DNA from: a virus
Lineage: Duplodnaviria; Heunggongvirae; Uroviricota; Caudoviricetes
Direction: 5' to 3' (one strand)
DNA length: 64,000 bases
Virus record (IMG/VR): IMGVR_UViG_3300031521_000016
Location: 35,895 to 99,894 of that record
The notes beneath the pieces are model-generated. The model was not told where the DNA came from. It worked only from the letters and a program-made list of their open reading frames with translations, and did no database searches. Positions 14,120-55,246 of this stretch are shown here, one piece after another (the first letter of the stretch is position 1; every line of letters begins with the position of its first letter). Both the position numbers and the translations under genes were made by a program.

Positions 14120-14407
14120 TCATTTAGTGGGAAACGCTAGTTCTTTCTTATGTCTCATATCTTTCTTAGGCTCATACCCAATATAAATAAAATTACCTGA
14201 ATAGAACTGTCTATTCTCATATATTACGTATGAGAACTTATGTTCTCCATGGCATATGAGATTGAATTCAGTATCAGTAACTCTATCTCTATTGAAAGAT
14301 GACATACTACAATTACGCATAGAATCTGGATATACTGATGTTATCTCATATTTCCCATCGAATGTAAAAATATGTCCATGCAAATCTTCTACTTTAGATT
14401 TGAACAT
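14120..14407 (-). CDS. hypothetical protein
   Basis: Track ORF. Confidence 0.45.
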   Translation of the reverse strand: MFKSKVEDLHGHIFTFDGKYEITSVYPDSMRNCSMSSFNRDRVTDTEFNLICHGEHKFSYVIYENRQFYSGNFIYIGYEPKKDMRHKKELAFPTK

Positions 14408-15266: not shown

Positions 15267-15795
15267 ATTCGATAAAGGGCTCTGAGTTTGTTATTATCTG
15301 TTTGTATCTATTAAATTCGCACATGGTCAAGTGTATGTTTTCACCACCTCCATAGTTCATACTGTGAACATAGTGTGCTGGAATATCGAGATCATGTTTT
15401 ACACAAAAATCTCTTAACCATTCTGCACATGCTTTACCAGTCTTTTCGACAAATTCTCCATCTGGATCTGCTCCATAATGTTCAAAACTTAAATCGTGGT
15501 CAAAAGAAATCAGCCAAAGAAACTTTTTCTGTTCGAAGAGTTCTGTTATCTTTTGTACAAATTCTGTATACGATCTTACTATTACCCAGTCTGTTTCAGA
15601 ATAGATAACTTTATTCATCGGCATATGCGGCATGTGATAATACATACACTCTCTAGGATGCCGCATATCGTCCAGAAACAATTTATATACTAAGATATCT
15701 CTTTCCATAATAGTTGTAAAGTTTCTTTTTCTGATTCCCAAACTTCTCGAGGTAATCCTGCTCTTGTTCCCTTTTCGAATATTACGCCTGGACAT
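15250..15795 (-). CDS. hypothetical protein
   Basis: Track ORF. Confidence 0.45.
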   Translation of the reverse strand: MSRRNIRKGNKSRITSRSLGIRKRNFTTIMERDILVYKLFLDDMRHPRECMYYHMPHMPMNKVIYSETDWVIVRSYTEFVQKITELFEQKKFLWLISFDHDLSFEHYGADPDGEFVEKTGKACAEWLRDFCVKHDLDIPAHYVHSMNYGGGENIHLTMCEFNRYKQIITNSEPFIEYDPES

Positions 15796-20103: not shown

Positions 20104-20940
20104 TTATTGCAAGTATACTGTCAATATATCGTCGAAGAACTCTTTGTTCTGTGTAAAGATCGGCGTTTCAACAGCTTCCCATTTATTTCGTCTTGCTCCA
20201 TTCTTTAGATACTCAACCTTTTTAATGATTGCTCCTCGCTTCCTGCGGTAATCATACTCATTCCAATTGATACCTTTTTCAAAGATCATATCTTGCATTA
20301 CATCTGTTTTCTTACCGTGTAGTTCTTTTGGGCTGTATAAGCTTTGAGCTACAGAAGAAATAGAATTGCGAGTGGCATCTTGCTGTCTCCAAATGAAATA
20401 ATTTATAACTTCCTGTCTAGCTGGAATAGTGAATACTCTAGCATCAAATTCAGCTAATTTTTTGAAGCATCCCATGATGTCATCATGTGTCTGAAAAACA
20501 AGATTTTCAAATTTTGACAGAGCACGTTTGATTCGCAATTCATTAAACTTATTAGTTGCCATAGAAGCTGATACACTTACAATCTTTTGGATATTATTAT
20601 CGTACCATGCATCGGTTGTTACATCATCGAAATCAGTAATTAATACTGAGATTTCATCAGATTGGACGTAAGCACATTTAGCACCTTGGATATTTTTACA
20701 CAGATATGCTGCAGTAAGATTCATATCTTCAATTAATCCATCATCAAATGGACGTTGCAACCCTTTCGTGTAAGTATGAAATGCTTTTCCATCGATTCTG
20801 ATTACTGCATATGTACGTCTGGGTAGATACATTCGAGTTCTGTTCTCGTAGAACTCTTTCATCCTGTTCCCTAAATCATCTTTTTTATTTTCCACGGTCG
20901 GTGTAATATTTAATGTATAATGCTTGTTGTCTGATGCCAA
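20104..20940 (-). CDS. Thg1-like tRNA 5'-guanylyltransferase (TLP)
   Basis: FYENRTRMYLPRRTYAVIRIDGKAFHTY...RPFDDGLIEDMN...CAYVQSDEISVLITDF matches the Thg1 catalytic core (RxDG, PFD, SDEIS). The start may be the internal M27. Confidence 0.75.
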   Translation of the reverse strand: MASDNKHYTLNITPTVENKKDDLGNRMKEFYENRTRMYLPRRTYAVIRIDGKAFHTYTKGLQRPFDDGLIEDMNLTAAYLCKNIQGAKCAYVQSDEISVLITDFDDVTTDAWYDNNIQKIVSVSASMATNKFNELRIKRALSKFENLVFQTHDDIMGCFKKLAEFDARVFTIPARQEVINYFIWRQQDATRNSISSVAQSLYSPKELHGKKTDVMQDMIFEKGINWNEYDYRRKRGAIIKKVEYLKNGARRNKWEAVETPIFTQNKEFFDDILTVYLQ

Positions 20941-22006: not shown

Positions 22007-23263
22007 TTAGTTGCTAATTTCTATAATATAGCGGATAGTAGCTTGCGATATATCGTAAATGATGTATTCATTGTTTCGTAAGTCTGCTCCACCCTCAGCG
22101 AATACAGAATCGAAACCATCAGCTGCAAGATTCTTTTTATTTAGCCCGTAATTAGAACGTGTTACATGTTTCTGATTTCCTACGTGAAAGTCAAATAATG
22201 CCAAGAAAGCAGTAGCAGCAGAACCTCTCGCCCAGTATGAACCGGATAATGATGTATAGCCGATAGACTTTTGTGCTTTATCAGCTCCATAGATACCGTC
22301 TCCGAACATAGAACCAGAATATACTGCTCCAGATGGTCTAATCAAAAGCCCTGTCTGTAAAATGTTAAGCCAGTTTTCATTTCTAGAACCATGCCAGAAT
22401 GTTTGTATCTTTTTATTTTTAGCTGAATCTACTTGTTTAATGAAGCGTTCTTCTGTTTGTATATTTTTTACACCGAATGCTCTAACGAATTGTTTAGCAT
22501 TTGGCCCCATAAGCGATTTGATTTTTTGAACTTCTGCATCTGTAATTTCTACCATTTCAAGACCAAGCATCTTTAATGTATCAACTTTTTCATCTGCATC
22601 ATCTTCTTCTCCACCATTTTCTGCAAGTTTTTGTTTCTTCAACATTTCAACTTGTCCTGCCATAGTATCTAAAAGTTTTTGTTCTTTGTCCATCATGTCG
22701 AACAGAGTTTTGTTTTTTGTATCTTTTAGATCGAAGTCTTTGGGTAAAAGATGATAACTTACATGCTTCATCTTTCTAGGTATAATCGAATACAGCTCTA
22801 AGAATAAGTTGTTGATATCATTAACCGTAAGAGTGGATAATCCGGCAGATATCGTATTAATGATGCCTTGTGCTGCATCAACTTGTTGTTGTGTAACGTC
22901 AGATTGAGAAATCGTGTAGTTTTCTTCTACCGTCTTTTTAGCAAAAGCTTGTAGTCTGTCGAAGAATAACTTAATCTTAGCATTAGCAATCTGAGTAATC
23001 GTTTTCTTCTTGCCGGTTTTAACATCAGTAGCAGTGGCTCCAATAGATTCGATGAATAGTGTGGTTACATCTTTATAACCTTTTTTCGTTTTCGCTCGAT
23101 ATGTCTTTTCCCATTCTCTAATCGGATAAGTTTTTTCAGCTGGTTTACCTCCTTGTACTCTACCATATACGACTGTGAATGTTCCATTTTCATTATCAGT
23201 CATATGATAAAATTTGTTGTTATTTTCACTGGTCACCATGACCAATTTTACTACTTTCCCCAT
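22007..23263 (-). CDS. PARP-like ADP-ribosyltransferase with N-terminal WGR domain
   Basis: WGR-like N-terminus (NNKFYHM...VVYGRVQGG...KGYKDV). Catalytic domain FWHGSRNENWLNILQTGL...GDGIYGADKAQKSIGY...NNEYIIYDISQATIRYIIE aligns with the PARP1 H-G-S / Y-Y / E triad. Confidence 0.8.
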   Translation of the reverse strand: MGKVVKLVMVTSENNNKFYHMTDNENGTFTVVYGRVQGGKPAEKTYPIREWEKTYRAKTKKGYKDVTTLFIESIGATATDVKTGKKKTITQIANAKIKLFFDRLQAFAKKTVEENYTISQSDVTQQQVDAAQGIINTISAGLSTLTVNDINNLFLELYSIIPRKMKHVSYHLLPKDFDLKDTKNKTLFDMMDKEQKLLDTMAGQVEMLKKQKLAENGGEEDDADEKVDTLKMLGLEMVEITDAEVQKIKSLMGPNAKQFVRAFGVKNIQTEERFIKQVDSAKNKKIQTFWHGSRNENWLNILQTGLLIRPSGAVYSGSMFGDGIYGADKAQKSIGYTSLSGSYWARGSAATAFLALFDFHVGNQKHVTRSNYGLNKKNLAADGFDSVFAEGGADLRNNEYIIYDISQATIRYIIEISN

Positions 23264-30025: not shown

Positions 30026-30958
30026 TTAAAATACTAGGGATGACTTTGTTTCCCATCTGAAATACAATTTTGCATTTTCTCTAAGAACCAGATACTTGTA
30101 CGTATCTTTTATTTCAGATGCCATGCAATCATCATCTACACATATAGACATTTCATCTATGTCATATAGATTTGCACCAAATGGTAAAATAGTCAATAAT
30201 CTGTATGAAGTTTTCACATACTCTACGATAGCATTATAGAAATGCTTACTCGCATTCTCATCTATCCATTTATCGATTTCTGAGTTCGATTCAGATTTAT
30301 AGAGTTTTCTGAATGTTACTTGATCAGCTCCTAGAAATTTACATCTGTCGATTATCGCTTTTGGACTATAGTTATCGAAGTCATTAACTAAATTTATAGA
30401 TAATCTGATATTGAAATCTAACTCTTTTGCAAGGGCAATTTTATCGAATACATTAAATTCAGTACTTTTGGCACATCCTATTAATTCTAAATTGCGTAAA
30501 TTATCAACTATGTTTGAAATTGAAAATGAAATAGTAGTAACTCCAATACGACGTAAATGCGTCAAATTTGATTTATCCAGTAATACACCGGTAGTTTGTA
30601 GTTCGATGCTTTTAAATGGTGAAGTCAATCTTGAATTGATCTCAGAGAAGAAATCTAAGAATTGTGGATTTTGAATAGGTTCACCTGTACCAGTTAATAC
30701 TACTGTGTTACAGCCGTTATCTCTAGCAAATTGCAATCGATTAAAATAATCTTTGTAATACTGAGAGTCTTTAGAAATTATTTTATCTAATGCATGTCTT
30801 CTGGCTAAAGATGTGTTAAACTCTTTAAAATTCGGTTTAATCAACGCAGATATAACGTCATTGTATGGATTAGTATGAGTTCTACTAACACAAAATTTAC
30901 AGTGATTTATACATTTGTTCTTCGTCGGAACAACGATACTAAGACTTTGGATATTCAT
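30026..30958 (-). CDS. radical SAM enzyme
   Basis: CINHCKFC (CX3CX2C) at residues 16-23 and a downstream GTGEP SAM-binding motif. Confidence 0.7.
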   Translation of the reverse strand: MNIQSLSIVVPTKNKCINHCKFCVSRTHTNPYNDVISALIKPNFKEFNTSLARRHALDKIISKDSQYYKDYFNRLQFARDNGCNTVVLTGTGEPIQNPQFLDFFSEINSRLTSPFKSIELQTTGVLLDKSNLTHLRRIGVTTISFSISNIVDNLRNLELIGCAKSTEFNVFDKIALAKELDFNIRLSINLVNDFDNYSPKAIIDRCKFLGADQVTFRKLYKSESNSEIDKWIDENASKHFYNAIVEYVKTSYRLLTILPFGANLYDIDEMSICVDDDCMASEIKDTYKYLVLRENAKLYFRWETKSSLVF

Positions 30959-31060: not shown

Positions 31061-32923
31061 TTATTCTTTAACGTCTGGTTTAGTCAATGGTTTTGTCGTT
31101 TCATCAGAGTTACGGACCATCTTTAAAACTTCCATACCTAATATACCATTTAATGCTCCATTTCCTCCTTCACCATTACCCGAAACAAGGACTTCAGGAA
31201 TAATTTTCACGTTGTTTATACCGATTTGTTCGATCACCTTAAACTTGGCGAAATTATCTTGACCCATAGAATCAACTTGCAATTTGTAAGATTCAGCAGT
31301 AGCTCTACCAATTGCTTCGATCTTGGTAGCTTCAGCCTTACCGGTAAGTTCAATTTGTGTTGCTTCAGCATCTGCATTAACCTTTTTAGCTTCAGCTTGA
31401 GCTCCAGCTTTAAGTTTAATTGCTTTTGCTTCACCTTCAGCTCTTTTTACTTCAGATTCTGCATTTCGTTGTGAAATTTCAACTTGTTGTTGAGCATTTA
31501 CAACTTCTCTTTGCATGTCTGCGATAGCTTCAGCAGATGCTAAAGTTTTTCTCATATCTTGAGCTTTTCTTTGTGTTTCAAATGTAACCTCTTGTTCCTG
31601 AGCAATTTTACGGTCAGTAAGAGTTTTCATAAGTTCGATAGGTGGAACAATATCACCGATTAGTGTATCAACGGCATGTACATTATATTCTTCTAATACT
31701 GCTGAGATTTTAGCTTTTGCGTCACCTTGTTTCTCTTGACGGTGGCCTAAGAATTCGATAACATCTGCATCTTGAGCAGAATTTCGGAAATAGTTACCGA
31801 TTGTTGGTTCAAGAACCTGTGATACCATGTTTTGCATAGATCCGAATCGGGCAATAACTTTAGGAGCTTCAGTAGATGGAACGTGAATGATCTGAGATAC
31901 ATCAAGGTTGAATGGGAAACCATCTTTTGAACGAACAGTAATAGTATTCAGATTCTTATCCAAGTTATGTGATTCTGTTCTTGCATTTGCCCAATTTAAT
32001 ACAAGATTTGTAGTAGGCACAACTTCAATCTTATGTGTATAAGGATTAATCGGATACTTACCTGGATTCAAAGTTTCAATCCATACACCCTTTTCACCTT
32101 TTTTCACGATGTTACCATGTTTGAAGTTTGCTCCGGTTACATCTTCACCTTCTTTTCCAACAAATGATATAACTACTCCAGCAGTACCAATTCCGATTTC
32201 AGTCATCGGTTTCTTTTCAATTTCCACTGCCCATGGGTTAAGTGAATATGTACCAGCCTGAATAACTTGCTCTTGCATACCTCTTTCTCCGCCATTTGCT
32301 AAGAATGTTTCAAAATCTTGGAAGTTATTATGACCATCGATAGTTGGACCAGCAATATTACCAGCACCTAATTGTACACCATCTAATGCAGTAACAATAC
32401 CTATCATTCCATCTTCTATAGATACAATATCAGTTTGGAATACATCGAACAATAAAGTATTAAGTCTGTATACACCAGTATTAAGATACCCAAGTTGTCT
32501 ACCACGTTTACCGCCATTGTTCAAGAATAGTCTGGCATTTTGAAAATTGTCAGAGTCTACACTACGAGCAAGCATAGTACCATCCGGTAATTTCTGTCCA
32601 TCTTTTGCGGAAATGATTCCTAATCTACCCTTTGGAATAACAGTAAGTGGTTCTTGCTTAATTTCATATTGCCAAATCCACTTAAACCAGTACAAACCTG
32701 GTGCTAATGTATCAGCTTGATAACCTGCTTCACCGTTTAATGCGATAATTTTACCGTCGGGTAACGATTTTTCTTTTCCGAATAGCACGAATTTTTTGAT
32801 GACAAGACCAATCTTATCTTCAGGAATAATAATCATCCCAAAGAATACTCTTAAGATGAACTTGTAAAATACAAGGGCTAGTACAACTACTGGCACCCAC
32901 CAATACGCTAATAATGCAATCAT
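31061..32923 (-). CDS. flotillin-like SPFH/band-7 protein
   Basis: N-terminal TM, SPFH-like core, and a C-terminal A/E/K-rich coiled-coil flotillin tail (AEAKKVNADAEATQIELTGKAEATKIEAIGRATAESY). Confidence 0.6.
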   Translation of the reverse strand: MIALLAYWWVPVVVLALVFYKFILRVFFGMIIIPEDKIGLVIKKFVLFGKEKSLPDGKIIALNGEAGYQADTLAPGLYWFKWIWQYEIKQEPLTVIPKGRLGIISAKDGQKLPDGTMLARSVDSDNFQNARLFLNNGGKRGRQLGYLNTGVYRLNTLLFDVFQTDIVSIEDGMIGIVTALDGVQLGAGNIAGPTIDGHNNFQDFETFLANGGERGMQEQVIQAGTYSLNPWAVEIEKKPMTEIGIGTAGVVISFVGKEGEDVTGANFKHGNIVKKGEKGVWIETLNPGKYPINPYTHKIEVVPTTNLVLNWANARTESHNLDKNLNTITVRSKDGFPFNLDVSQIIHVPSTEAPKVIARFGSMQNMVSQVLEPTIGNYFRNSAQDADVIEFLGHRQEKQGDAKAKISAVLEEYNVHAVDTLIGDIVPPIELMKTLTDRKIAQEQEVTFETQRKAQDMRKTLASAEAIADMQREVVNAQQQVEISQRNAESEVKRAEGEAKAIKLKAGAQAEAKKVNADAEATQIELTGKAEATKIEAIGRATAESYKLQVDSMGQDNFAKFKVIEQIGINNVKIIPEVLVSGNGEGGNGALNGILGMEVLKMVRNSDETTKPLTKPDVKE

Positions 32924-32944: not shown

Positions 32945-33463
32945 TTATTTAATGTAATTCGAATTGAAAGTAGAATTTAAACTGTTTAATTTGTCTGTTA
33001 GCTTAGTAGTTTTTATGTTATCAATATTATACTTCTCTTGATACTCAGCATCATAACGTTCATATAGTGATTCAGGAGTACCTGTTAAAGAGTTAGTAAT
33101 AAAGTCATCGTCTACATCTTTTCGATGATTATGAATCCAGTATTCACCGACTTGTTTATAGTAGTACTTATAGAAATCTGTTGGCCAGAATATCCATAGA
33201 TCGTAAATAGTAAATTCTTGATGATAGTCTAATACAAATTTTCTTACATAGTATCCGCCATGCTTCCTGTAAATTTCATAGATAGGCGTGTGTCTTCCTA
33301 TGAACCGTTTAGCTTTAGGCAGTTTTATCTTAATAATGAGCTTCTTTGGAACAACATATGACAATAAAAAACGTAAGAATGCAATTCCACATAGAAAAAT
33401 AGCTATAGCGAATATTACCATTAATGAGTATACTATGATACATTCTAGAGGTTTATCATTCAT
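32945..33463 (-). CDS. membrane protein
   Basis: N-terminal TM helices. Confidence 0.45.
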   Translation of the reverse strand: MNDKPLECIIVYSLMVIFAIAIFLCGIAFLRFLLSYVVPKKLIIKIKLPKAKRFIGRHTPIYEIYRKHGGYYVRKFVLDYHQEFTIYDLWIFWPTDFYKYYYKQVGEYWIHNHRKDVDDDFITNSLTGTPESLYERYDAEYQEKYNIDNIKTTKLTDKLNSLNSTFNSNYIK

Positions 33464-33968
33464 AATTTTCTGTGTAAGTTTTGTTTAAATTTTCAATTTT
33501 CTGTTCAATCTTCTGAGTTTTTGATAGTCGTCTATTGTATTCAGTATTAGAGATAGCATCTAGCTCTTCATATTTAGCACATAGATCATTAATTTCATGC
33601 TCTATTGAAGCATAGTCTACAGGATGTCTATTAACCATTTCATATCTCCATCCTTTTATTTCGAACGGTATAGGACATAAAATGTATATCAAAATGTTTA
33701 ATGATTCAATAGAAGTCCATTGTAATGCATATTTTTCAATATGCCAATCATCCCAAGTATATGCAAGTTTATAAATAGGATCAACTTTAGAATCATATTT
33801 ATGCGACTTTCGCAAGTATATTTTGATTGTTTTACTATAGCATGCAAATATGCAATTCGAAATGATATTAAATGCAGCGTATGCAATAAAACAAAAAATA
33901 AAGAAAACTATCATTGGCATACCGTCAAATGGAGATGATAAAGGAGCTGATAATAAAAAATTACTCAT
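33456..33968 (-). CDS. membrane protein
   Basis: N-terminal TM helices. Confidence 0.45.
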   Translation of the reverse strand: MSNFLLSAPLSSPFDGMPMIVFFIFCFIAYAAFNIISNCIFACYSKTIKIYLRKSHKYDSKVDPIYKLAYTWDDWHIEKYALQWTSIESLNILIYILCPIPFEIKGWRYEMVNRHPVDYASIEHEINDLCAKYEELDAISNTEYNRRLSKTQKIEQKIENLNKTYTENYE

Positions 33969-34545: not shown

Positions 34546-35031
34546 TTAAATTTTGACAGTGTTAATAGTTACAATTAATTCGGCAATCTTATCATCCAAT
34601 CTTTTCTTATTGTCTTCAATAGTACTTATAACAGCTCTACATTGCATTCTGTAATGTTCCAGACATTCATCTGCATTATCGAAACATGCAACGAACGGTG
34701 TCGGTTTAAATGAATTTCCACTTCTACCCCAAGCGTATAGTTGTTCGTTATATTCATAAATCTGCACAATAGATTTGCATCGTACACCCTTTTTAGTTAA
34801 TTTCACGAGAGCATTCTCTGAACCATAAAGTTGTTTAACAGAAGGTGATTCAGATTTTGGTACGAGTATACATTTTGTAGGAACAGTATGTCTATATGCT
34901 CCATTACTACATAGATCAAAATCAAAATGTAAATAATTGCATACAAAAATTTCTTTCCCTAAATAAGGTGAATTTTTTTGAGCTAGAATTTCTGAATCAA
35001 GTTTCATATTAATGTGAATGTGAGGTTTCAA
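34546..35031 (-). CDS. hypothetical protein
   Basis: Track ORF. Confidence 0.45.
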   Translation of the reverse strand: MKPHIHINMKLDSEILAQKNSPYLGKEIFVCNYLHFDFDLCSNGAYRHTVPTKCILVPKSESPSVKQLYGSENALVKLTKKGVRCKSIVQIYEYNEQLYAWGRSGNSFKPTPFVACFDNADECLEHYRMQCRAVISTIEDNKKRLDDKIAELIVTINTVKI

Positions 35032-35917
35032 TGTATATCATTTCTGCATTACTATATGCTGCGGTAATATCAGCTTTCATTTCAGAAATAATAGATTCTA
35101 CTTTATATACATGAATATCATCTTCTAAATCAAGTGACATAGCAAGAATAAATTTGTTATTGCCATTGTATTCAGATCGCATGTTATTTATATGCTTAAC
35201 ATCTGGATACGATTTAATGATCTGTTTTATATGCATTCTCATTTCCCTTGATATGCTTTCACCAATCATTAATTTTCTAAATTCGTTACTCAAAAAATAT
35301 GAGGATGATAATAAAAGTAATCCAACAGTGATCGATCCAATTGCATCAAATACGGGAGATATGCATATAGCTAATGTAGTAGAAAGTAGTACAATAACTA
35401 ATCCTGTAAGGGCAGCAAAATCTTCAATTATGATAACGAATATATTAGCATCAGTTGAATTTTTAAGATGATTTAGCCAACTAACTTTTCTATGCTTATC
35501 CATTTTGAATCGTTTGAATGCAACATAGAATGAATTTGCCTCAATGATGATCGATATAATTAGAACGATAAAAATCCACATCATATTTGAAAGGCCCTCT
35601 GGTTCTATTATCTTATGAATGCCTTCATATACTGAATATAAACCACCAACAAAGAATAGTAAAACTCCTACTAACAGTCCATAAAAATATTCCTCTTTGC
35701 CATAACCAAATGCATGTTGTTCATCAGGTTCTTTTTTAGAACGTTTAGAGCCCACGATTAAAAGAATTTGGTTTGCAGTGTCAGCAAAAGAGTGAATAGA
35801 TTCAGCGAACATTCCAGCACTTCCAGTAATGAATGATACTATCAACTTAATTGCACTTATTATGAGATTTCCTACTCCTGCTACAATTACTGCCTTTAAA
35901 CTTCCTTCTGTACTCAT
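35009..35917 (-). CDS. cation diffusion facilitator (CDF) family metal efflux transporter
   Basis: Six predicted TM helices, the CDF signature SIHSFADTANQ in TM2, and a C-terminal cytoplasmic domain. Confidence 0.75.
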   Translation of the reverse strand: MSTEGSLKAVIVAGVGNLIISAIKLIVSFITGSAGMFAESIHSFADTANQILLIVGSKRSKKEPDEQHAFGYGKEEYFYGLLVGVLLFFVGGLYSVYEGIHKIIEPEGLSNMMWIFIVLIISIIIEANSFYVAFKRFKMDKHRKVSWLNHLKNSTDANIFVIIIEDFAALTGLVIVLLSTTLAICISPVFDAIGSITVGLLLLSSSYFLSNEFRKLMIGESISREMRMHIKQIIKSYPDVKHINNMRSEYNGNNKFILAMSLDLEDDIHVYKVESIISEMKADITAAYSNAEMIYIETSHSH

Positions 35918-36420
35918 TCAGCCTCCATTATTCGTTCAAGATATTCCCATGCTTTTAATACGTCGATCGGATGTTCTGTGCATTGAATAGCATTTCTGAA
36001 TTCTGCATATTCATTTTTGTACATTAAGAACTTATCTTTGTTGTATTCTTTACTTTGAATAGTATTTGCAATTCTATCACATATTTTGACAGCTGTTGCT
36101 TTCCAGTTTCCACGAATTTTAGGATAAGTCTTGGCATGTTTTTCTGTCCGGTTTCTTCCTAATTCATCAGTTACACAGAATACTATTTCTGCGATATTTT
36201 TACCGAATGCTTTCTTAATATCATTGAACGATAAATGAGTATCTTCCAATACATCATGTAAAATACATCCAATAACAATTTCTTCATCAAATCCCAAAAT
36301 CTCAGCGATTTCAGCTACACGCTTTACATGATATGCATATGGGTAGATATCGTAAGTCTGGCCTTTATGAACCAACTCAGCTACCATCAAAGCTCTATCC
36401 TTTTTTGTTATCGTTATCAT
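35914..36420 (-). CDS. HD-domain small alarmone hydrolase (SpoT/Mesh1-like (p)ppGpp hydrolase)
   Basis: H...HDVLEDT...FG..IAEIVFCVTDE matches the RelA/SpoT HD hydrolase motifs; 168 aa, single domain. Confidence 0.7.
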   Translation of the reverse strand: MITITKKDRALMVAELVHKGQTYDIYPYAYHVKRVAEIAEILGFDEEIVIGCILHDVLEDTHLSFNDIKKAFGKNIAEIVFCVTDELGRNRTEKHAKTYPKIRGNWKATAVKICDRIANTIQSKEYNKDKFLMYKNEYAEFRNAIQCTEHPIDVLKAWEYLERIMEAE

Positions 36421-37130: not shown

Positions 37131-37895
37131 TTATTTTTTATTTGTTGGTTCTAACCAAGTTCCATCTCTAAATATTAGATCAAGAAAGCCCGGAATATAT
37201 GTTGATTCTACTAAATTCAACAGTTTTAAAGTTTTGACTGTATCATGTTTCATCATCTTCTTAACTTCTTCTCTTATACGTTCATTACTCACAGTCTTTC
37301 CAAGTTTTTCGAGGATAGCAGGTTGCTTCATAGCTTCCCAAATATCTACGTGGATATCGAAGTTTTTTGTGATAGAAAAACGCATAGCTCGCAAGATACG
37401 TAATGGATCGTCCATCATAGTAATCTTTGGATCGATAGGGGTAATCAAAATACGATTACTTAATGCAAGCTTGCCATTGAATAAGTCGATAATTTTGCCC
37501 TCTTCATCTTCTGCCATTGCATTGACAGTAAAATCTCTTCGTTCTAAGTCATCAGCTAAAGTACCCAGTGCTAAGATAGGAGTTCTTGTATCGGGTATGT
37601 AACCGAGCTCTTTTCGTGCTAATACAAAATCAGCAACTAATCCGTCATAAATATGACCATGTGGAAATTTAGCGCGAATAGTAAACATTTCTGGAGTAGA
37701 AAGAAAGATACTATATTTGCGTTCTTTCATCCATTCATACATGACGTTGAAACCTTCAGTGACAGTTAATTCACTGCATAAGCCAGGAACTATACGTTCT
37801 TGTTCATTTAGTACAAAAGTGAAATCGACATCTTTGTTTTCGATACCTAATAGAGCATCTCTTACTACTCCTCCTACTTTATAAATTTTTGGCAT
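37131..37895 (-). CDS. class-II tRNA nucleotidyltransferase head/neck domain (minimal CCA- or A-adding enzyme / poly(A) polymerase family)
   Basis: GGVVRDALLG...DVDF, ERRDFTVNAMA and DDPLRILRAMRF are the canonical PolyA_pol head-domain motifs; only 254 aa. Confidence 0.8.
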   Translation of the reverse strand: MPKIYKVGGVVRDALLGIENKDVDFTFVLNEQERIVPGLCSELTVTEGFNVMYEWMKERKYSIFLSTPEMFTIRAKFPHGHIYDGLVADFVLARKELGYIPDTRTPILALGTLADDLERRDFTVNAMAEDEEGKIIDLFNGKLALSNRILITPIDPKITMMDDPLRILRAMRFSITKNFDIHVDIWEAMKQPAILEKLGKTVSNERIREEVKKMMKHDTVKTLKLLNLVESTYIPGFLDLIFRDGTWLEPTNKK

Positions 37896-38543: not shown

Positions 38544-38578
38544 ATAAAAAAATGCCTGAATTAAAAAATTCAGGCATT
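38544..38578 (-). terminator. rho-independent terminator (stem AATGCCTGAATT/AATTCAGGCATT plus T7)
   Basis: 12-bp stem followed on the minus strand by TTTTTTT. Confidence 0.65.
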
Positions 38579-38602
38579 TTACATTTTCTTGGCAATATAT
38601 TT

Positions 38603-40489: not shown

Positions 40490-40927
40490 TTACACTAATT
40501 TTGAAAAATCTTTTAGCTCATTTCTAACTTTCATCAGGATTTTACCAAGCATATTTTTACCTACACCTTCGCATACTCCCCAATATTTATCTCCCCACCA
40601 ATTACCTTCAATAAGCATTGCATCACCGGTAGCAATTAATTTCTTTGTAAGTTCGGCACTTTGTGAAAATTTAGCCATTACGACTTCTTCCATAATGCTA
40701 TCTTTAACTAAATCCCAATCGGAACGTAGATTTACAGATCTGCCAAGTTTTTTACTCTCGCTTGGATTAAGCGATACGAATGATTCTCTAGCAACTGAAT
40801 CATTCGTTTTCATAGAATGAAATGCGCCTTCTGAGTTGGCATACGTTCTTCCGTCATAAGTAACTGGTGATTCCCAGAAGTTACTGAGGAATGCGTATTC
40901 CCCTTTGAAAAAGTCAATAGTTTTCAT
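40490..40927 (-). CDS. NADAR (YbiA-like) ADP-ribosyl hydrolase domain protein
   Basis: FLSNFW, E at SEGAFHSMK, MEEVVMAKFSQ...LTKKLIATGDAMLIEGNWWGDKYWG and NMLGKILMKVR match the NADAR signature. Confidence 0.75.
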   Translation of the reverse strand: MKTIDFFKGEYAFLSNFWESPVTYDGRTYANSEGAFHSMKTNDSVARESFVSLNPSESKKLGRSVNLRSDWDLVKDSIMEEVVMAKFSQSAELTKKLIATGDAMLIEGNWWGDKYWGVCEGVGKNMLGKILMKVRNELKDFSKLV

Positions 40928-41926: not shown

Positions 41927-42385
41927 CTATTTACAGATCTTGTCTGCACAATATGTAGCAGCAAAACCGTCAGGTTTAAAACGAGGTTTATATCCCATTG
42001 ATTCAATATATCCTAAAGATGCACGTAATACTGCATTGGATTTATATTTCGGATCAGGATTAAAGTCAATATCGATAAACTCAGGTTTTTGAATTCCAGA
42101 ATTTCTCAAGTACTCAGAAATTTCAATTGAGATTTCTACTTCTTTCCACAATCTTGAAAATGAATCATATACACGTTTTGTCAATTCCTTTGAATAAAGA
42201 ACGTGAGCACCGTGATTTCCGTAATGTAGAACAATTACTACTGCATATAATGTAGAAGCTCCTCTGCTCTGCGAATCTGTACCTACGTAGATTTTTATAT
42301 CTTCGTGGTCAATAAATTGCTGTTGCAAGTATGGTATTAAGTCGACTTCTTTTTTTGTAGTCAAACTTTTAAATTTTCTTTCCAT
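41927..42385 (-). CDS. hypothetical protein
   Basis: Track ORF adjacent to the nucleotidyltransferase gene. Confidence 0.45.
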   Translation of the reverse strand: MERKFKSLTTKKEVDLIPYLQQQFIDHEDIKIYVGTDSQSRGASTLYAVVIVLHYGNHGAHVLYSKELTKRVYDSFSRLWKEVEISIEISEYLRNSGIQKPEFIDIDFNPDPKYKSNAVLRASLGYIESMGYKPRFKPDGFAATYCADKICK

Positions 42386-42394
42386 AATGAATTA

Positions 42395-43588
42395 TTATCT
42401 TGATGCACTAGGCCTGGGAATCCTTCCCTTTTCTACTTCAGGTCTATTACTTATTCTACTTTTTTTGACATGCCTAATTTGATCATTACAATTTTTCCAT
42501 CTCATGGATATGAGTAAATTGTTGATATAGTCACGATCTGGAGATTCTTGCATGTCGGATTTGTCAAATGCTTCATTTACTTGTTTCATCAAGTCTTCAG
42601 CTTCATTAACTAAATCTTCATATTCATATTCTCCTTTTCTGATAGCTAACAATTTATCTCTATTTGTGCGTCTTACATTTATTCCTTTGCCTTGCGCAAT
42701 CTCTAATGACATTTCAAGCAAACGTAAAGTATGTGCTAAATTTTTACCGTCATATCCTTTTCCGTGCAACATGTTATCATTGAAACGGTGAACATTCCTT
42801 TTGGCAACCCATTCCCAGTATTCTTTATATTCTTTGCAGTATACAGAATAACCTTCCATGTTAAATTGCATTAAGAAATCTGGTTTTATACCACTTGGAA
42901 TATTACTAAGACTTACATCCATCGCAGTTTCTTCGTCTGAAACAATACCTCTATAGTAATCAGATATGAGAATGCCTTGTTCTCTAGCAAGAAATTGATT
43001 ACGATTATAGTATACACCGTATGTGTTTTTCATATGAGGTAGTGCAACTAATCCACAACAATCTTGTACCATGTCGTTCATTCGTAAGTACTCTTTAACG
43101 TTAATAGAGCCTTGCTTCCATTGAACGAAACAGAATTCTAAAATGCTTTTGCGTTTTTCATCGAACTGTTTAACAATCTTTTTGTTCAATCCTCTAGCTT
43201 TCTTTATTTGTTGAGTAGCATACCCACCAAATGAATTTTTACAGAGCTTAGAGATAAATTTATCTCTATTTTCGAGGATCATATCGAATATTGGTGCTTT
43301 ATAAATTACACAATCTTCAGGTGTATTCAAAAGCTCTATGATATTAGGATTGTTAGTGTATATTAATTCCAAAAATTTTCCTAATTCGTAGAATGTGATA
43401 TCGTTCATTTCATCAGATACTTGATCGTCATATTCTAATCCAAGAATTTTATCGATAGGTTGCATGAATACACCACGTATGTCTGTATCAGAAGTTTCTG
43501 TTGCAGTACCATATGCGTGTGAACCAGCGATAACTTCATAAATTATCAGTCCATTATCTCGTAAATCTTGTAAAGTTAATTTCTTCAT
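42395..43588 (-). CDS. Pol-beta-superfamily nucleotidyltransferase (RlaP/PF10127-like; CD-NTase/OAS-like not excluded)
   Basis: GSHAYGTATETSDTDIRGV is the G[S]-x9-DxD nucleotidyltransferase motif followed by RGV, as in RNA-repair-associated predicted nucleotidyltransferases; 397 aa. Confidence 0.6.
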   Translation of the reverse strand: MKKLTLQDLRDNGLIIYEVIAGSHAYGTATETSDTDIRGVFMQPIDKILGLEYDDQVSDEMNDITFYELGKFLELIYTNNPNIIELLNTPEDCVIYKAPIFDMILENRDKFISKLCKNSFGGYATQQIKKARGLNKKIVKQFDEKRKSILEFCFVQWKQGSINVKEYLRMNDMVQDCCGLVALPHMKNTYGVYYNRNQFLAREQGILISDYYRGIVSDEETAMDVSLSNIPSGIKPDFLMQFNMEGYSVYCKEYKEYWEWVAKRNVHRFNDNMLHGKGYDGKNLAHTLRLLEMSLEIAQGKGINVRRTNRDKLLAIRKGEYEYEDLVNEAEDLMKQVNEAFDKSDMQESPDRDYINNLLISMRWKNCNDQIRHVKKSRISNRPEVEKGRIPRPSASR

Positions 43589-45897: not shown

Positions 45898-46278
45898 CTA
45901 GATAATTTCTTTTAATGATTCAGCAGTCTTCAAGTATTCTTTTATGAACTGTGCCAATTTGTAGTCATATAGAGAAATATGATATAATAACCATTTTCTC
46001 GATATATTTACAAGTTCTTCACTTGTTTTATCACATTTCATTGATTCTAAACTATTAAGAAAGTCCGAATGCAAACATATATGAGATTTGAAATCTGGAT
46101 AATCTAGCAATAACATTATCTGCTCTTCGTGAGCAAAATGAATGCGTGAATAGTCTTTTAATGCCGCTACAGCATTAGTTACATCTATTTCTTCATTTTC
46201 TATTTGTTCGAAAATCTCGAAAAATCGTTGGTGATCATTATCTAAAATGTCAATCTCAAGCTTTAAAAAGTCTATCAT
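45898..46278 (-). CDS. hemerythrin-like HHE cation-binding domain protein
   Basis: Spacing of HFAHEEQIM ... HICLH ... WLLYHISLYDYK fits hemerythrin iron ligands. Confidence 0.5.
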   Translation of the reverse strand: MIDFLKLEIDILDNDHQRFFEIFEQIENEEIDVTNAVAALKDYSRIHFAHEEQIMLLLDYPDFKSHICLHSDFLNSLESMKCDKTSEELVNISRKWLLYHISLYDYKLAQFIKEYLKTAESLKEII

Positions 46279-50137: not shown

Positions 50138-50634
50138 TAGAATCCAAATTTAGTTGATATTTTTCGTTTACGTAAAAGCTTTAGTTCATTCTCATCAGAT
50201 AGTGTGCTCAATAAAGATTCACGTGTTATAGGATATACAAGTTTTCTTATATTCTTAACTATTAATGATTTCTGTAAAGCTAAAGCTAAATTCTCATATT
50301 TTGTGGGCAGCGCCGGTAATTGTATAGTTTCCCAGTTGCCAGATTTAGCAGTAATGTTCTTGGTTTCAATATCTATTTCTAACCCATAATCTTCATTTGA
50401 TGATAAAATCGATATAGCACATGTATTATCTACATTGCCGTAAAAAATCATTTTATCAAAAGTTTGTAGAATATCTATTGCACACGCAGTCAGACGTGAA
50501 ATGAATATATCGTCACAATCAATGAAACTTTCATCCCATAATACACTATGTGCAATATTATGGGATGAAGGCGTTTTGTTCACATCTCTGTAAATGACAA
50601 TACGTTGCATGTTTTTAGAGAATCCTAGAACCAT
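50137..50634 (-). CDS. hypothetical protein with C-terminal KFGF tail
   Basis: Ends ...RKRKISTKFGF; immediately downstream of the Nudix gene. Confidence 0.5.
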   Translation of the reverse strand: MVLGFSKNMQRIVIYRDVNKTPSSHNIAHSVLWDESFIDCDDIFISRLTACAIDILQTFDKMIFYGNVDNTCAISILSSNEDYGLEIDIETKNITAKSGNWETIQLPALPTKYENLALALQKSLIVKNIRKLVYPITRESLLSTLSDENELKLLRKRKISTKFGF

Positions 50635-51176
50635 GAAGGAAACAAGATCTGTAAAATTTGTTTAACTTTGTATCTGAATGGATGTTTCACCTTTTCATTG
50701 TAGATATTGTTTATGCGAGAATAATGATTGAATGCCCAATCGTAATTATGCAGACATTTGACATTTATCCATCTTAAATCTTCAACTTCATTTTCTTCAG
50801 AGCCAAGGCGGTTCAGATGAGGCAAAGGTTGAGTATAATCAAACTTTAAGACTAAGTAGTATCTAAATGTGATATTCTGCTCATTGTATGCATCTTCATT
50901 CCAAGAATCGAATTTGAGCATTTCTGGATCGATTCTGATCCCGGTTTCTTCGAATAATTCTCTTACACAACCCTGGCGAGAAGTTTCATCGTAATCTAAA
51001 TAGCCACAAGGTGCATTCCAATAGCCTTGAAAATTCGGTGTTCCGCTTCCACGTTTATTTGCTAAAATGTAAGTTTCACCATCTTTTTTTGCAAAAATGA
51101 AACCTGTTACAGCAGTGGCTCTGCTAATCCAATAAGTTTTACCTTCATGTTCAACTGGAAAATTTTTTCTACTCAT
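50625..51176 (-). CDS. Nudix hydrolase
   Basis: Nudix box GYLDYDETSRQGCVRELFEETGI (Gx5Ex7REuxEExGu). Confidence 0.75.
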   Translation of the reverse strand: MSRKNFPVEHEGKTYWISRATAVTGFIFAKKDGETYILANKRGSGTPNFQGYWNAPCGYLDYDETSRQGCVRELFEETGIRIDPEMLKFDSWNEDAYNEQNITFRYYLVLKFDYTQPLPHLNRLGSEENEVEDLRWINVKCLHNYDWAFNHYSRINNIYNEKVKHPFRYKVKQILQILFPSWF

Positions 51177-53495: not shown

Positions 53496-53984
53496 TCATT
53501 TGACATGTTTCAATACAGCGAATAATGTAGAGTATGTACCAATTTTATCGTCATATCCACCCTTAAATAAGCTATAATTTCTTATCTTTACACCATTTTT
53601 ACTTATGCCGATTCTGTACAAATATTTGTCGCGATTCTTATGTTCATCATACCACAAATTATCTTCTTCGTCGTACCTAAATCCATTATCGTATAGTGAT
53701 TGAACGATATCGATAACCGGCACGTAACCAGTGTAACGCTTAATAGTTTTATAGTCAAATCTTAGACCTCCAAAATACATTGTATAGTATCTATCATGAT
53801 CACCGTTGGATGTTAAAAGATCGAATATTACTTCACCAATATGTGATATTGCAGCTAATTCTTTTTCTACTTCTAAGATATAGTCAGAAATAGTAAAATA
53901 ATCTAACGCATACACCATATACGGGTATGTACTATTTATTGTAACTTCTATTTTATATAAGAGTCTGGTCGGAATTGATTCCAT
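53496..53984 (-). CDS. hypothetical protein
   Basis: Track ORF. Confidence 0.5.
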   Translation of the reverse strand: MESIPTRLLYKIEVTINSTYPYMVYALDYFTISDYILEVEKELAAISHIGEVIFDLLTSNGDHDRYYTMYFGGLRFDYKTIKRYTGYVPVIDIVQSLYDNGFRYDEEDNLWYDEHKNRDKYLYRIGISKNGVKIRNYSLFKGGYDDKIGTYSTLFAVLKHVK

Positions 53985-54928: not shown

Positions 54929-55246
54929 TTATGTTATTTTAATCCAGCCTTCTCCGCCTGGACCACATTCATTTTCTATAGTTATCTTTATCAGTTTTTG
55001 ATTCTCATAACCTCCAGCTCTTATAGCTATTGGCATAAATTCTTTTTCTAACATCTCTTCATCGAAGGGATGACTATCTCCTAAGCATACAAATACATGA
55101 TTCTCTTTCTCGTTAAGATATACATCACCGTATTCACCATTGCAAAGAATTGCAATGGCATACGCATAATGTTGAAGTTTAGCAAAATCGATAGGTCCCG
55201 GATATTTAACGTCTTCGTTAAATTCTTTGTATTTCTTTATTCTCAT
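54929..55246 (-). CDS. hypothetical protein
   Basis: Track ORF. Confidence 0.45.
   Translation of the reverse strand: MRIKKYKEFNEDVKYPGPIDFAKLQHYAYAIAILCNGEYGDVYLNEKENHVFVCLGDSHPFDEEMLEKEFMPIAIRAGGYENQKLIKITIENECGPGGEGWIKIT

What the first reader, a model, noticed from the sequence alone, without database searches (positions are those of the whole stretch)
35009..35917. Cation diffusion facilitator transporter encoded by a phage, immediately upstream of the alarmone hydrolase
A six-TM CDF protein with the HSFAD signature is an unusual auxiliary gene for a phage. It may manipulate Zn/Mn/Co homeostasis of the infected cell. Metal-dependent enzymes nearby include the HD hydrolase, NUC nuclease, hemerythrin and VWA metallopeptidase.
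Basis: partly seen in the sequence, partly recalled or inferred. Interest (0 to 1): 0.5.

Follow-up and report, generated by a model that had tools for sequence, protein, structure and literature searches.

The report
Huge-phage ZnT9-like metal efflux transporter
A large phage of Bacteroidales-type bacteria carries an intact copy of a host-derived metal-export pump that is most similar to the mitochondrial zinc exporter ZnT9; related giant phages carry such pumps too, so it is a real but fairly ordinary borrowed host gene whose role in infection is untested.

Summary
[quoted passage not shown] The window is phage, with a T4-like portal and gp15; its nearest relatives are the 462-735 kb "huge phages" and Lak phages. 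New here: the protein belongs to the ZnT9/SLC30A9-like CDF branch (profile-profile probability 99.9%, E=5e-37, against E=9e-13 for YiiP). It shares ZnT9's published hallmark, HxxxD in TM2 but V/IxxxD in TM5. Zinc export from the cytoplasm is therefore the best guess. The gene is not unique. All 27 phage copies examined are intact and keep the key residues. They fall into at least five clades interleaved with Bacteroidota genes, which suggests repeated capture. PHROG 7308 already catalogues phage "cation efflux proteins". The proposed link to nearby metalloenzymes is not supported. The HD (Mesh1/SAH-like) gene is transcribed before the CDF (ATGA overlap), and this adjacency occurs in no sampled relative. 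The other cited enzymes lie 10-30 kb away. Verdict: new member of a known kind, modest interest.

The parts
35009..35917 (-). CDF transporter gene, 302 aa, stop codon included; ZnT9/SLC30A9-like subfamily
   Evidence: ORF; Pfam/NCBIfam/PHROG matches; AF2 model and Foldseek; ZnT9 comparison
35288..35890 (-). Transmembrane domain (residues 10-210, Cation_efflux; six TM helices)
   Evidence: Pfam PF01545 residues 10-210; AF2 helices 3-31, 34-60, 74-104, 112-139, 157-185, 189-216
35780..35794 (-). TM2 transport-site motif H42-S-F-A-D46 (HxxxD), within the invariant E39..H42..D46..N49-Q50
   Evidence: Sequence; invariant in 121/121 family members and in vertebrate ZnT9; aligns with YiiP D45/D49
35420..35434 (-). 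TM5 motif I162-I-I-E165-D166 (the V/IxxxD of ZnT9 in place of the canonical HxxxD; the adjacent Glu is invariant)
   Evidence: Sequence; E165 and D166 invariant, position 162 always I or V; ZnT9 TM V 'V/IXXXD' described in PMC11335279
35036..35248 (-). Cytoplasmic C-terminal domain (residues 224-294, ZT_dimer, alpha-beta-beta-alpha-beta)
   Evidence: Pfam PF16916, 29.1 bits against cut-off 26.7; AF2 secondary structure H224-235, E240-252, E255-264, H270-287, E291-299
35914..35917 (-). ATGA overlap of the HD-hydrolase stop and the CDF start, with GGAGG ending 4 nt before the ATG
   Evidence: Sequence read
35914..36420 (-). Gene transcribed immediately before the CDF: 168-aa HD_4 / Mesh1 / small-alarmone-hydrolase-like protein (a neighbour; no functional partnership shown)
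   Evidence: Pfam HD_4 3e-10, TIGR00691 N-terminal region; PDB hits 4yf1, 3nqw, Rel hydrolase domains, SAH 6z3o; adjacency absent in relatives
34546..35007 (-). Next gene after the CDF, 153 aa from the ATG at 35007 (1 nt after the CDF stop); no family match
   Evidence: Sequence; no Pfam or PHROG hit
38549..38580 (.). Terminator-like hairpin with a 14-bp stem. No further minus-strand terminator-like site down to 33400, so the HD and CDF genes lie in one uninterrupted co-directional block.

Best explanation
The gene encodes a functional, dimeric CDF-type divalent-metal/proton antiporter of the ZnT9 (SLC30A9)-like branch. An ancestor of this phage lineage captured it from a Bacteroidales-type host, and it has since been kept under purifying selection. 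It is expressed from a long co-directional gene block during infection and inserts into the host inner membrane. There it moves a divalent metal, most probably Zn2+, from the cytoplasm to the periplasm. The metal binds a transport site built from H42/D46 (TM2) and D166 (TM5), probably helped by the invariant E165, N158 or E39. The benefit to the phage is inferred: keeping free cytoplasmic zinc, or a similar metal, low during the long infection cycle of a very large phage, or under metal stress. Shown: gene integrity, family and subfamily membership, fold, conservation across phages, Bacteroidota origin, and composition matched to the phage. Inferred: transport activity, substrate, direction of transport, expression, and the benefit.
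For: CDF membership comes from Pfam, NCBIfam and PHROG matches above their cut-offs, and from the fold. ZnT9-like assignment rests on three results. BLASTP against a source-named ZnT9 (P0131) gives 31% identity over 267 aa with 2 gaps, 137 bits, E=5e-41. Profile-profile A2 against a ZnT9 alignment gives probability 99.94%, E=5e-37, score 269, whereas YiiP gives score 91, E=9e-13 and about 54 bits. The invariant residues are shared: TM2 E..HS..D..NQ, TM5 N......ED, TM6 D. ZnT9's published hallmark is HxxxD in TM II and V/IxxxD in TM V (PMC11335279), and the query has I162xxxD166. ZnT9 is a mitochondrial Zn2+ exporter. It binds Zn2+, the authors mutated the HxxxD residues H198/D202 (which they describe as corresponding to residues important for YiiP activity) and tested rescue, and the matrix is topologically equivalent to the bacterial cytoplasm (PMC8901913). 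Selection and residence: 27 phage copies are intact with all key residues kept; dN/dS is about 0.12-0.3 with dS saturated; GC3 is 22%, close to the other phage copies (10-23%) and unlike the bacterial homologues (45-60%), and the gene's overall GC (31.5%) is close to the window's 33%. Origin: the nearest cellular homologues (50-58%) are Bacteroidales, Rikenellaceae, Prolixibacteraceae and Lentimicrobiaceae. The query clade (bootstrap 100) is sister to a Bacteroidales/Rikenellaceae clade (bootstrap 84). Operon-like packing: ATGA overlap upstream, a 1-nt gap downstream, and no terminator-like site within the block.
Against: No transport, expression or localisation data exist. The TM5 half of the canonical four-residue site lacks its His, so site geometry and selectivity cannot be read from the well-studied CDFs. 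Three different alignments to YiiP gave three different TM5 registers. The published CDF clade analysis warns that site composition predicts metal selectivity poorly (PMC5703985). NCBIfam's best named matches, all far below their cut-offs, are the iron-type MamB/MamM/FieF. The query and its 99% twin sit on a long branch and differ at four near-invariant positions (L14G, W79Y, A84G, M249E). ZnT9's two conserved His residues between TM3 and TM4, and its CTD His, are not conserved at the aligned positions.
Confidence: 0.62

Rival explanations
1. It is the same kind of working CDF exporter, but its physiological substrate is not zinc. It could be Fe2+, Mn2+, Co2+ or Cd2+, for example to limit iron or manganese toxicity in anaerobic, metal-rich habitats.
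For: The best named NCBIfam resemblances are MamB, MamM and FieF, which are iron-type. The carboxylate-rich site (E39, D46, E165, D166, with only one His) differs from the classical Zn-type HD-HD. A-site composition correlates poorly with selectivity (PMC5703985). C. elegans SLC-30A9 probably also bound Cu2+ and Mn2+, with low affinity.
Against: All those NCBIfam scores are 4-5 times below their cut-offs. The only experimentally studied relatives that share the TM2/TM5 signature are ZnT9 proteins, which act on zinc.
Confidence: 0.25
2. The phage protein does not mainly transport metal itself. Instead it forms mixed dimers with the host's 50-58% identical CDF and changes or blocks host metal efflux, as a takeover or poisoning function.
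For: CDFs work as dimers, and some form heterodimers such as ZnT5/ZnT6 (PMC10932157). The closest cellular homologues are from the presumed host group. The query has a long branch and substitutions at four near-invariant positions.
Against: Every conserved polar residue of the transport pathway is retained in all 27 phage copies. A mere dimer poison would not need that. Nothing tested here bears on heterodimerisation.
Confidence: 0.05
3. The CDF and the alarmone hydrolase transcribed before it form a functional module. The transporter would tune the Mn2+/Zn2+ level that controls the metal-dependent hydrolase, or more broadly it would serve the phage's other metalloenzymes.
For: There is a four-base ATGA overlap and a shared co-directional block. 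The HD protein is Mesh1/SAH-like, and that family is Mn2+-dependent (established knowledge).
Against: No HD hydrolase homologue lies within 6-10 kb of the CDF in any of the 24 relatives' loci compared. In five related phages the CDF instead sits in a PARP / 159-aa / CDF / RlaP block. The other cited metalloenzymes lie 10-30 kb away. An exporter would lower, not raise, the supply of cofactor.
Confidence: 0.05
4. The gene is not really a phage gene. It would be host DNA joined to the phage by mis-assembly, or the window would be a bacterial region.
For: The closest cellular homologues are bacterial at 50-58% identity. Some 'phage' database hits look like bacterial contigs (H4-H10).
Against: GC (31.5%) is close to the window's 33%, and GC3 (22%) is like the other phage copies, not the bacterial homologues. 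The gene overlaps or abuts phage-block genes on both sides. All 22 ORFs of at least 250 aa in the 64 kb window are on the minus strand, and it carries phage hallmark genes. Curated complete huge-phage genomes carry intact homologues.
Confidence: 0.02

Closest known systems
ZnT9 / SLC30A9 (mitochondrial proton-coupled zinc antiporter) and its prokaryotic homologues
   Same: It is the best-scoring characterised relative: 31% identity, almost gapless over the six TMs and the start of the CTD, with profile-profile probability 99.94%. It shares TM2 E..HS..D..NQ, TM5 N......ED with V/IxxxD in place of HxxxD, the TM6 Asp and a short TM4-TM5 loop without His. Export is from the matrix or cytoplasm side.
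   Different: The phage protein is a minimal 302-aa form. It lacks ZnT9's N-terminal extension of about 230 aa (targeting signal plus conserved region) and the conserved C-terminal tail of about 70 aa. ZnT9's two conserved His residues between TM3 and TM4 align with E98 and E105, and its CTD His aligns with N244. It is bacterial or phage rather than eukaryotic.
Bacteroidota chromosomal CDFs of the same subfamily (uncharacterised; e.g. P0015, P0021, Bacteroidales/Rikenellaceae MAGs)
   Same: They are 50-58% identical over the full length, with the same length and the same invariant residues. They form the sister clade in the tree. They are the probable source of the phage gene.
   Different: They sit in a cellular context (next to an RND efflux system, or near GldL gliding genes) and have higher GC3 (45-60%, against 22%). 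The query differs from them at L14G, W79Y, A84G and M249E.
YiiP/FieF (E. coli, Shewanella), the structural archetype of CDFs
   Same: Same fold and domain order (Foldseek top hits, TM-score up to 0.71). The TM2 site residues align (H42/D46 with D45/D49), as does the loop HxFGxGK(A/E)E signature.
   Different: Only 19-22% identity. YiiP has DxxxD in TM2 and HxxxD in TM5. The binuclear CTD site C histidines are not conserved (H232 aligns with N, H248 with S).
PHROG 7308 'cation efflux protein' and czcD-type viral auxiliary genes
   Same: These are phage- or virus-associated CDF genes already catalogued as moron / auxiliary metabolic genes. The query matches at 2e-28 over nearly its full length. 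czcD is reported among viral AMGs.
   Different: The match is moderate (100 bits). The non-huge-phage records with hits (Listeria and Enterococcus 'phage' contigs) are only 25-32% identical. No function has been tested for any of them.
CDFs of huge phages LR756500 (462 kb) and LR756501/3 (735 kb) and of IMG/VR jumbo contigs
   Same: They are intact 298-306-aa CDFs of the same subfamily, 46-54% identical, in related T4-like-portal huge phages.
   Different: They fall in different CDF clades from the query and have different neighbouring genes. They were not discussed in the main text of the paper describing these genomes.

Membership tests
Cation diffusion facilitator (CDF) superfamily | Sequence match to the family models above curated cut-offs (Pfam PF01545; TIGR01297) | tested here: met
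   PF01545 128.4 bits against 26.6; TIGR01297 134.4 bits against 82.35
Cation diffusion facilitator (CDF) superfamily | Six transmembrane helices followed by a cytoplasmic alpha-beta-beta-alpha-beta (ferredoxin-like) domain | tested here: met
   AF2 model with pLDDT 84, six long helices plus H-E-E-H-E; Foldseek PDB top hits YiiP/ZnT7/ZnT1/ZnT8 at probability 1.00; ZT_dimer 29.1 bits against 26.7
Cation diffusion facilitator (CDF) superfamily | Site A, first half: BxxxB motif (B = H/D/N/E) on TM2 | tested here: met
   H42-S-F-A-D46, invariant in 121/121 homologues; aligns with YiiP D45/D49
Cation diffusion facilitator (CDF) superfamily | Site A, second half: BxxxB motif on TM5 (canonically HxxxD) | tested here: not met
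   The motif is I162xxxD166. Only the Asp is present, and the adjacent E165 is invariant. The same deviation is documented for ZnT9. TM5 pairs that cannot be mapped by alignment are documented for CDF clades 13, 14, 17 and 18. The deviation therefore marks a subfamily and does not exclude the protein from the superfamily.
Cation diffusion facilitator (CDF) superfamily | Divalent-metal/proton (or K+) antiport activity | not testable with these tools
   Needs complementation or proteoliposome assays
ZnT9 / SLC30A9-like CDF branch | HxxxD kept in TM II while TM V reads V/IxxxD | tested here: met
   H42xxxD46 and I162xxxD166; feature as stated in PMC11335279
ZnT9 / SLC30A9-like CDF branch | Closer in sequence and profile to ZnT9 than to the other structurally characterised CDF it was compared with at profile level (YiiP) | tested here: met
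   ZnT9: 137 bits, hhalign score 269, E=5e-37. YiiP: about 54 bits, hhalign score 91, E=9e-13. ZnT1, ZnT8, ZnT7 and ZnT4 chains: 23-43 bits in the PDB searches
ZnT9 / SLC30A9-like CDF branch | Long conserved N-terminal extension with mitochondrial targeting signal, and conserved C-terminal blocks | tested here: not met
   The query is 302 aa. The alignment covers ZnT9 residues 233-499 of 567 only. The query is a prokaryote-type minimal homologue, not a ZnT9 orthologue.
ZnT9 / SLC30A9-like CDF branch | Two conserved His residues between TM III and TM IV | tested here: not met
   ZnT9 H327 and H334 align with E98 and E105 of the query. The query family instead conserves H101.
ZnT9 / SLC30A9-like CDF branch | Zn2+ binding and export from the matrix or cytoplasm side | not testable with these tools
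   Reported for C. elegans and human SLC30A9; untested for any bacterial or phage member found here
Phage auxiliary / moron gene of host origin | Encoded within a bona fide phage genome, with composition matched to the phage | tested here: met
   Portal and gp15 in the window; gene GC 31.5% against window 33%, and GC3 22% like the other phage copies (10-23%) against bacterial homologues 45-60%; gene junctions
Phage auxiliary / moron gene of host origin | Retained intact and under constraint in related phages; nearest cellular homologues in the host group | tested here: met
   27 intact phage copies with key residues kept; dN/dS of 0.3 or less; sister to a Bacteroidales/Rikenellaceae clade, bootstrap 84
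Small alarmone hydrolase / Mesh1-type HD domain (the neighbouring gene 35914-36420) | HD_4 / RelA-SpoT hydrolase-domain homology with the HD...ED motif | tested here: met
   HD_4 40.5 bits against 27.2; TIGR00691 N-terminal 120 positions; PDB 4yf1, 3nqw (Mesh1), Rel hydrolase domains, SAH 6z3o; 'LHDVLEDT' aligned. (p)ppGpp hydrolysis itself was not tested.

The most novel reading that the evidence does not exclude
Zinc (or divalent-metal) export is a convergently selected takeover function of very large Bacteroidota phages. The ZnT9-like host exporter has been captured independently at least four or five times and then kept intact. That would mean metal homeostasis of the infected cell is a real bottleneck for megaphage replication. 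Possible reasons are zinc released by degradation of host ribosomes and proteins during a long infection, or a host zinc-dependent defence or intoxication response. These minimal phage and bacterial proteins would also be tractable models for the unusual ZnT9 transport site, for which no solved structure turned up in the PDB searches made here.
Probability: 0.25. Interest if true: 0.55.

Novelty: new member of a known kind. Interest (0 to 1): 0.3.

Why it matters
If the protein works as inferred, phages with very large genomes do more than reprogram host nucleotide and energy metabolism. They also take control of trace-metal levels in the infected cell, and they have acquired the tool for this repeatedly from their Bacteroidota hosts. 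The analysis also shows that a large, uncharacterised bacterial and phage CDF subfamily carries the same atypical transport site as human ZnT9 (HxxxD in TM2, V/IxxxD plus an invariant Glu in TM5). ZnT9 is a disease gene for which no solved structure turned up in the PDB searches made here. Small prokaryotic or phage homologues could serve as structural and mechanistic models. On its own, though, this is one more host-derived accessory gene of a known family with no functional data, so the immediate significance is modest.

Tried and rejected
(1) Megablast of 34-38 kb against 50,697 phage records gave no match, so the phage lineage had to be placed by protein searches.

(2) Mapping the TM5 metal ligands by alignment to YiiP failed. 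phmmer, hhalign, a family-profile hmmsearch and a MAFFT alignment with distant homologues gave three or four different registers. The register was settled only through the ZnT9 comparison and the published V/IxxxD description.

(3) Model coordinates are not exposed to scripts, so site-A geometry (the roles of E165, N158 and E39) could not be measured.

(4) The Foldseek AFDB50 library was unavailable. The ZnT9 lead, first recalled from memory, was instead verified by using the recalled sequence only as bait and then comparing the query with real, source-named database proteins.

(5) Conserved HD-hydrolase/CDF linkage was looked for in 7 + 17 relatives' loci and not found.

(6) The sigma-70 promoter scan found fewer sites than in shuffles (22 against 28.8), so it is uninformative. 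Bacteroidota-type promoters are not covered.

(7) Literature searches for phage-encoded CDFs ('cation diffusion facilitator' with phage, auxiliary metabolic or huge phages) found no dedicated study. The huge-phage paper's main text mentions no cation, efflux or transporter genes.

(8) dN/dS is only an upper-bound style estimate because dS is saturated (above 1.2 or undefined) in all pairs.

(9) The idea that the gene is host contamination was rejected on composition and gene junctions.

(10) No tRNA genes occur in the window.
Full report
OBSERVATION. It runs from 35917 to 35009 on the minus strand, with an ATG start, 302 codons and a TAA stop. It scores far above the curated thresholds of the CDF models: Pfam Cation_efflux 128 bits against 26.6, residues 10-210; ZT_dimer 29.1 against 26.7, residues 224-294; TIGR01297 134 against 82. 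The HSFAD motif is residues 42-46. [quoted passage not shown] Its best structural matches in the PDB are YiiP, ZnT7, ZnT1 and ZnT8, all at probability 1.00.

The window is phage. All 22 ORFs of at least 250 aa lie on the minus strand. They include a T4-type portal (1e-62) and a gp15-type tail-sheath stabiliser. The portal's closest relatives are the metagenomic huge phages LR756500 (462 kb, 43%), LR756504/2/1 (636-735 kb) and the Lak Prevotella megaphages (36%). There is no nucleotide-level match to any deposited phage.

One detail needs correcting. Both genes are on the minus strand, so the CDF is transcribed immediately after the HD hydrolase gene (35914-36420), not before it. The two reading frames overlap in ATGA, with a GGAGG just ahead. 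The next gene starts 1 nt after the CDF stop. No terminator-like hairpin interrupts the minus strand between a strong one at 38580-38549 and 33400.

WHAT IT IS. A search of 5.8 billion proteins returned 1,206 hits at E of 1e-10 or better. These comprise a 99% twin, a group at 60-68% identity, and then a dense set of 51-58% homologues, several of them named as Bacteroidales CDFs. Contexts were read for representatives. The 64-68% relatives (P0008, P0002) lie on phage-like contigs of up to 137 kb, with Thg1, OmpA-like and homing-endonuclease genes and many ORFs without family matches. P0069 (54%) is on another phage-like contig (187 kb). P0015 and P0021 (57-58%) are in ordinary Bacteroidota chromosomal contexts. 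A scan of one genome per species found the nearest cellular homologues (50-58%) almost exclusively in uncultured Bacteroidales, Rikenellaceae, Prolixibacteraceae and Lentimicrobiaceae. More distant members (33-39%) occur in Actinomycetota, Myxococcota, Acidobacteriota and others.

Across the 121 closest homologues the polar residues E39, H42, D46, N49 (TM2), E66, H68, E75, E98, E126, E165, D166 (TM5), D191, E212 and E220 are invariant. N158 is nearly so (116 of 121, otherwise Ser), and the query keeps all of them.

The canonical CDF transport site is two BxxxB motifs, one on TM2 and one on TM5 (PMC10932157). The TM2 half is present (H42xxxD46). TM5 has no HxxxD anywhere in this subfamily, and alignments to YiiP gave inconsistent TM5 registers. 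The TM2 'AEAIHSxADxxNQ' and TM5 'LLEDxAAL' motifs reminded me of eukaryotic ZnT9. I treated that as a lead only. I used a recalled human segment as bait to retrieve real proteins that NCBI and UniRef name 'proton-coupled zinc antiporter SLC30A9, mitochondrial'. I then compared the phage protein with those.

The result is 31% identity over 267 residues with two gaps, 137 bits, E=5e-41. The profile-profile comparison gives probability 99.94%, E=5e-37, score 269. For YiiP the figures are about 54 bits and score 91. The residues invariant in vertebrate ZnT9 (E268, H271, D275, N278, Q279, H297, E355, N390, E395, D396, D422) coincide with the invariant residues of the phage and bacterial family. A 2024 paper states that ZnT9's distinctive feature is that the TM V HxxxD 'is changed to V/IXXXD' while the TM II HxxxD is kept (PMC11335279). 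The query reads I162-I-I-E-D166, and position 162 is I or V in every homologue. That fixes the register.

The gene is therefore a minimal, prokaryote-type member of the ZnT9-like CDF branch. It is not a ZnT9 orthologue. It lacks the long N-terminal extension and the C-terminal tail, and ZnT9's loop and CTD histidines are not conserved at the aligned positions.

HOW IT MOST LIKELY WORKS. ZnT9/SLC-30A9 binds Zn2+ and exports it from the mitochondrial matrix. The authors mutated its HxxxD residues (H198, D202), which they describe as corresponding to residues important for YiiP activity, and tested whether the mutants still rescue (PMC8901913). The matrix corresponds topologically to the bacterial cytoplasm (established knowledge). 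By homology, the phage protein should be a dimeric metal/proton antiporter in the host inner membrane that moves Zn2+ (less certainly another divalent metal) out of the cytoplasm. It would use H42/D46/D166 with help from the invariant E165, N158 or E39.

What is shown is integrity, family, fold and conservation. Activity, substrate, expression and benefit are inferred. Substrate assignment is the weakest step. Site composition predicts selectivity poorly across CDF clades (PMC5703985). The best named NCBIfam resemblances, far below cut-off, are iron-type MamB/MamM/FieF.

IS IT MAINTAINED IN PHAGES? Yes. tblastn finds intact homologues in the curated huge phages LR756501/3 (735 kb, 305 aa, 48%) and LR756500 (462 kb, 298 aa, 46%). 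A pattern-limited scan of IMG/VR found 17 loci, most on contigs of 86-429 kb. All 27 phage copies assembled here are full-length (298-329 aa). All keep E39, H42, D46, N49, H68, E126, I/V162, E165, D166 and D191.

Pairwise dN/dS among phage copies is 0.12-0.34 with dS saturated. The gene's GC (31.5%) is close to the window's 33%, and its GC3 (22%) resembles the other phage copies (10-23%), whereas bacterial homologues have GC3 of 45-60%. The gene is therefore a long-resident, constrained phage gene, not a recent pickup or an assembly artefact.

A bootstrapped NJ tree (100 replicates) places the query with eleven relatives in a 100%-supported clade. Only two of those relatives had their phage context checked. 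This clade is sister (84%) to a 100%-supported Bacteroidales/Rikenellaceae bacterial clade. Four other phage clades sit elsewhere, partly nested among Prolixibacteraceae and Lentimicrobiaceae sequences (73-79%): the LR756500 group (100%), the LR756501 group (85%), the L012-14/26 group (100%) and L027/28 (100%). This favours several independent captures, although NJ with moderate support is not decisive. Notably, the phages that share the most other genes with the window (PARP-domain, RlaP and a 159-aa protein at 38-47% identity; L015/L020/L021/L023/L025) carry a CDF from a different clade (the LR756500 clade).

THE PROPOSED LINK TO NEIGHBOURING METALLOENZYMES. The HD protein is genuinely Mesh1/small-alarmone-hydrolase-like (HD_4; 'LHDVLEDT'; best PDB hits 4yf1, Mesh1 3nqw, Rel hydrolase domains, SAH 6z3o). 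But no HD homologue lies near the CDF in any of the 24 relatives' loci compared. In the 64-68% relatives the CDF follows Thg1 and precedes an L-PSP gene. In five IMG/VR phages it sits in a PARP / 159-aa / CDF / RlaP block. In LR756501 it follows a ClpB-like gene. The other enzymes cited do exist but are distant: Endonuclease_NS at 4918-5547, DUF2201 peptidase/VWA at 7715-9340 and hemerythrin at 45898-46278. The ATGA overlap therefore reflects tight packing in this lineage. There is no evidence for a conserved functional module.

COMPARISON WITH WHAT IS KNOWN, AND NOVELTY. Phage-borne CDFs are already catalogued: PHROG 7308, category 'moron, auxiliary metabolic gene and host takeover'. czcD-type genes appear in viral AMG lists. 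They are nevertheless rare overall. Only 10 of 50,697 phage records hit, and seven of those are short or doubtful Listeria and Enterococcus contigs. BFVD has only a giant-virus and a plant-virus CDF. I found no paper that discusses them in phages, and the huge-phage paper's main text does not mention them.

What this analysis adds is the assignment to the ZnT9-like branch, the recurrence and apparent repeated capture in huge Bacteroidota phages, and the rejection of the neighbour-based functional story. That makes it a new member of a known kind. Interest is modest (0.3). A specialist would not be very surprised by a host-derived transporter in a huge phage, and no long-standing question becomes testable. 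The repeated capture and the ZnT9 connection are worth a note.

LIMITS. There are no experimental data of any kind. dS is saturated. The tree is NJ only. The 'phage' status of the 60-68% clade rests on two inspected contexts. The host is inferred only from homology.

Noticed in passing
window 13398-14084, 22007-23263, 40490-40927, 50625-51176 (all minus strand): A set of NAD+/ADP-ribose-related genes is scattered through the window: SIR2 (7e-45), a 418-aa PARP-catalytic-domain protein (6e-22), NADAR (1e-27) and NUDIX (5e-15). It may be an ADP-ribosylation or NAD-salvage or counter-defence toolkit. The PARP protein is conserved at 44-47% identity in five IMG/VR phages.
   Followed up: partly
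window 20104-20940, 37131-37895, 42395-43588, 15250-15795, 53496-53984, 41927-42385: There is a dense RNA-repair and tRNA-maintenance repertoire: Thg1 tRNA-His guanylyltransferase, a CCA-adding/PolyA_pol nucleotidyltransferase, an RlaP nucleotidyltransferase, a cREC_REC cyclic-phosphate receiver domain, an RnlB-antitoxin-like protein and an RNaseH-like protein. Yet there are no tRNA genes in the 64 kb.
   Followed up: no
L015 2439-8117; also L020, L021, L023, L025: A conserved gene block (PARP-domain protein, a 159-aa protein homologous to window 14407-14886, the CDF, then RlaP) occurs in five IMG/VR phage contigs. In the window the same four genes are dispersed over 28 kb (14.4, 22, 35 and 42 kb), which indicates extensive rearrangement of this accessory region.
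   Followed up: partly
L001 2830-4454; L002 2079-3706: The phage relatives that carry the 64-68% CDF also encode an ABC-transporter permease (BPD_transp_1) and ATPase pair next to a large OmpA-domain protein. That is a second transporter system on these phages. No counterpart was seen among the window ORFs scanned.
   Followed up: no
window 7715-9340 and 9355-10920: A DUF2201_N metallopeptidase / VWA-like protein (541 aa) lies directly downstream of a 521-aa AAA+ ATPase. This resembles the MoxR-VWA type pairing seen in cellular genomes. A ClpP-like protease (11171-11701) lies just upstream.
   Followed up: no
window 55246-56964, 56957-57727, 58369-58872: The T4-like portal gene is directly preceded by, and overlaps by 8 nt, an ORF with a weak NUMOD1 (homing-endonuclease DNA-binding) match. 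That ORF has homologues next to LAGLIDADG genes in relatives. A TnsA-like endonuclease lies about 650 nt further upstream. These may be selfish elements around the portal gene.
   Followed up: no
window 30026-30958 and 31061-32923: A radical SAM protein (310 aa) and a 620-aa SPFH/Band 7 membrane-scaffold protein lie 2-5 kb downstream of the CDF in the same strand block. Two small ORFs at 32945-33463 and 33456-33968 have hydrophobic N-terminal stretches and may be membrane proteins (read from the translations; not tested).
   Followed up: no
window 38549-38580: A perfect 14-bp-stem hairpin (AAAATGCCTGAATT...AATTCAGGCATTTT) is flanked by T-runs on the minus strand. It is the only strong terminator-like element in 33.4-38.6 kb and probably marks a transcription-unit boundary upstream of the block that contains the HD and CDF genes.
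   Followed up: partly
L024 (IMG/VR UViG_3300025030_000039, 429 kb) and L011 (LR756500, 462 kb): The CDF proteins of these two records are identical, so the IMG/VR contig is probably the same phage as, or a very close relative of, the curated 462 kb genome.
   Followed up: no
query residues 14, 79, 84, 249 (nt 35878-35876, 35683-35681, 35668-35666, 35173-35171): The query and its 99% twin differ from 97% or more of the family at four positions (L14G, W79Y, A84G, M249E), and they sit on a long branch within their clade. This suggests relaxed or shifted constraint in this particular phage lineage. The cause is unexplained.
   Followed up: partly
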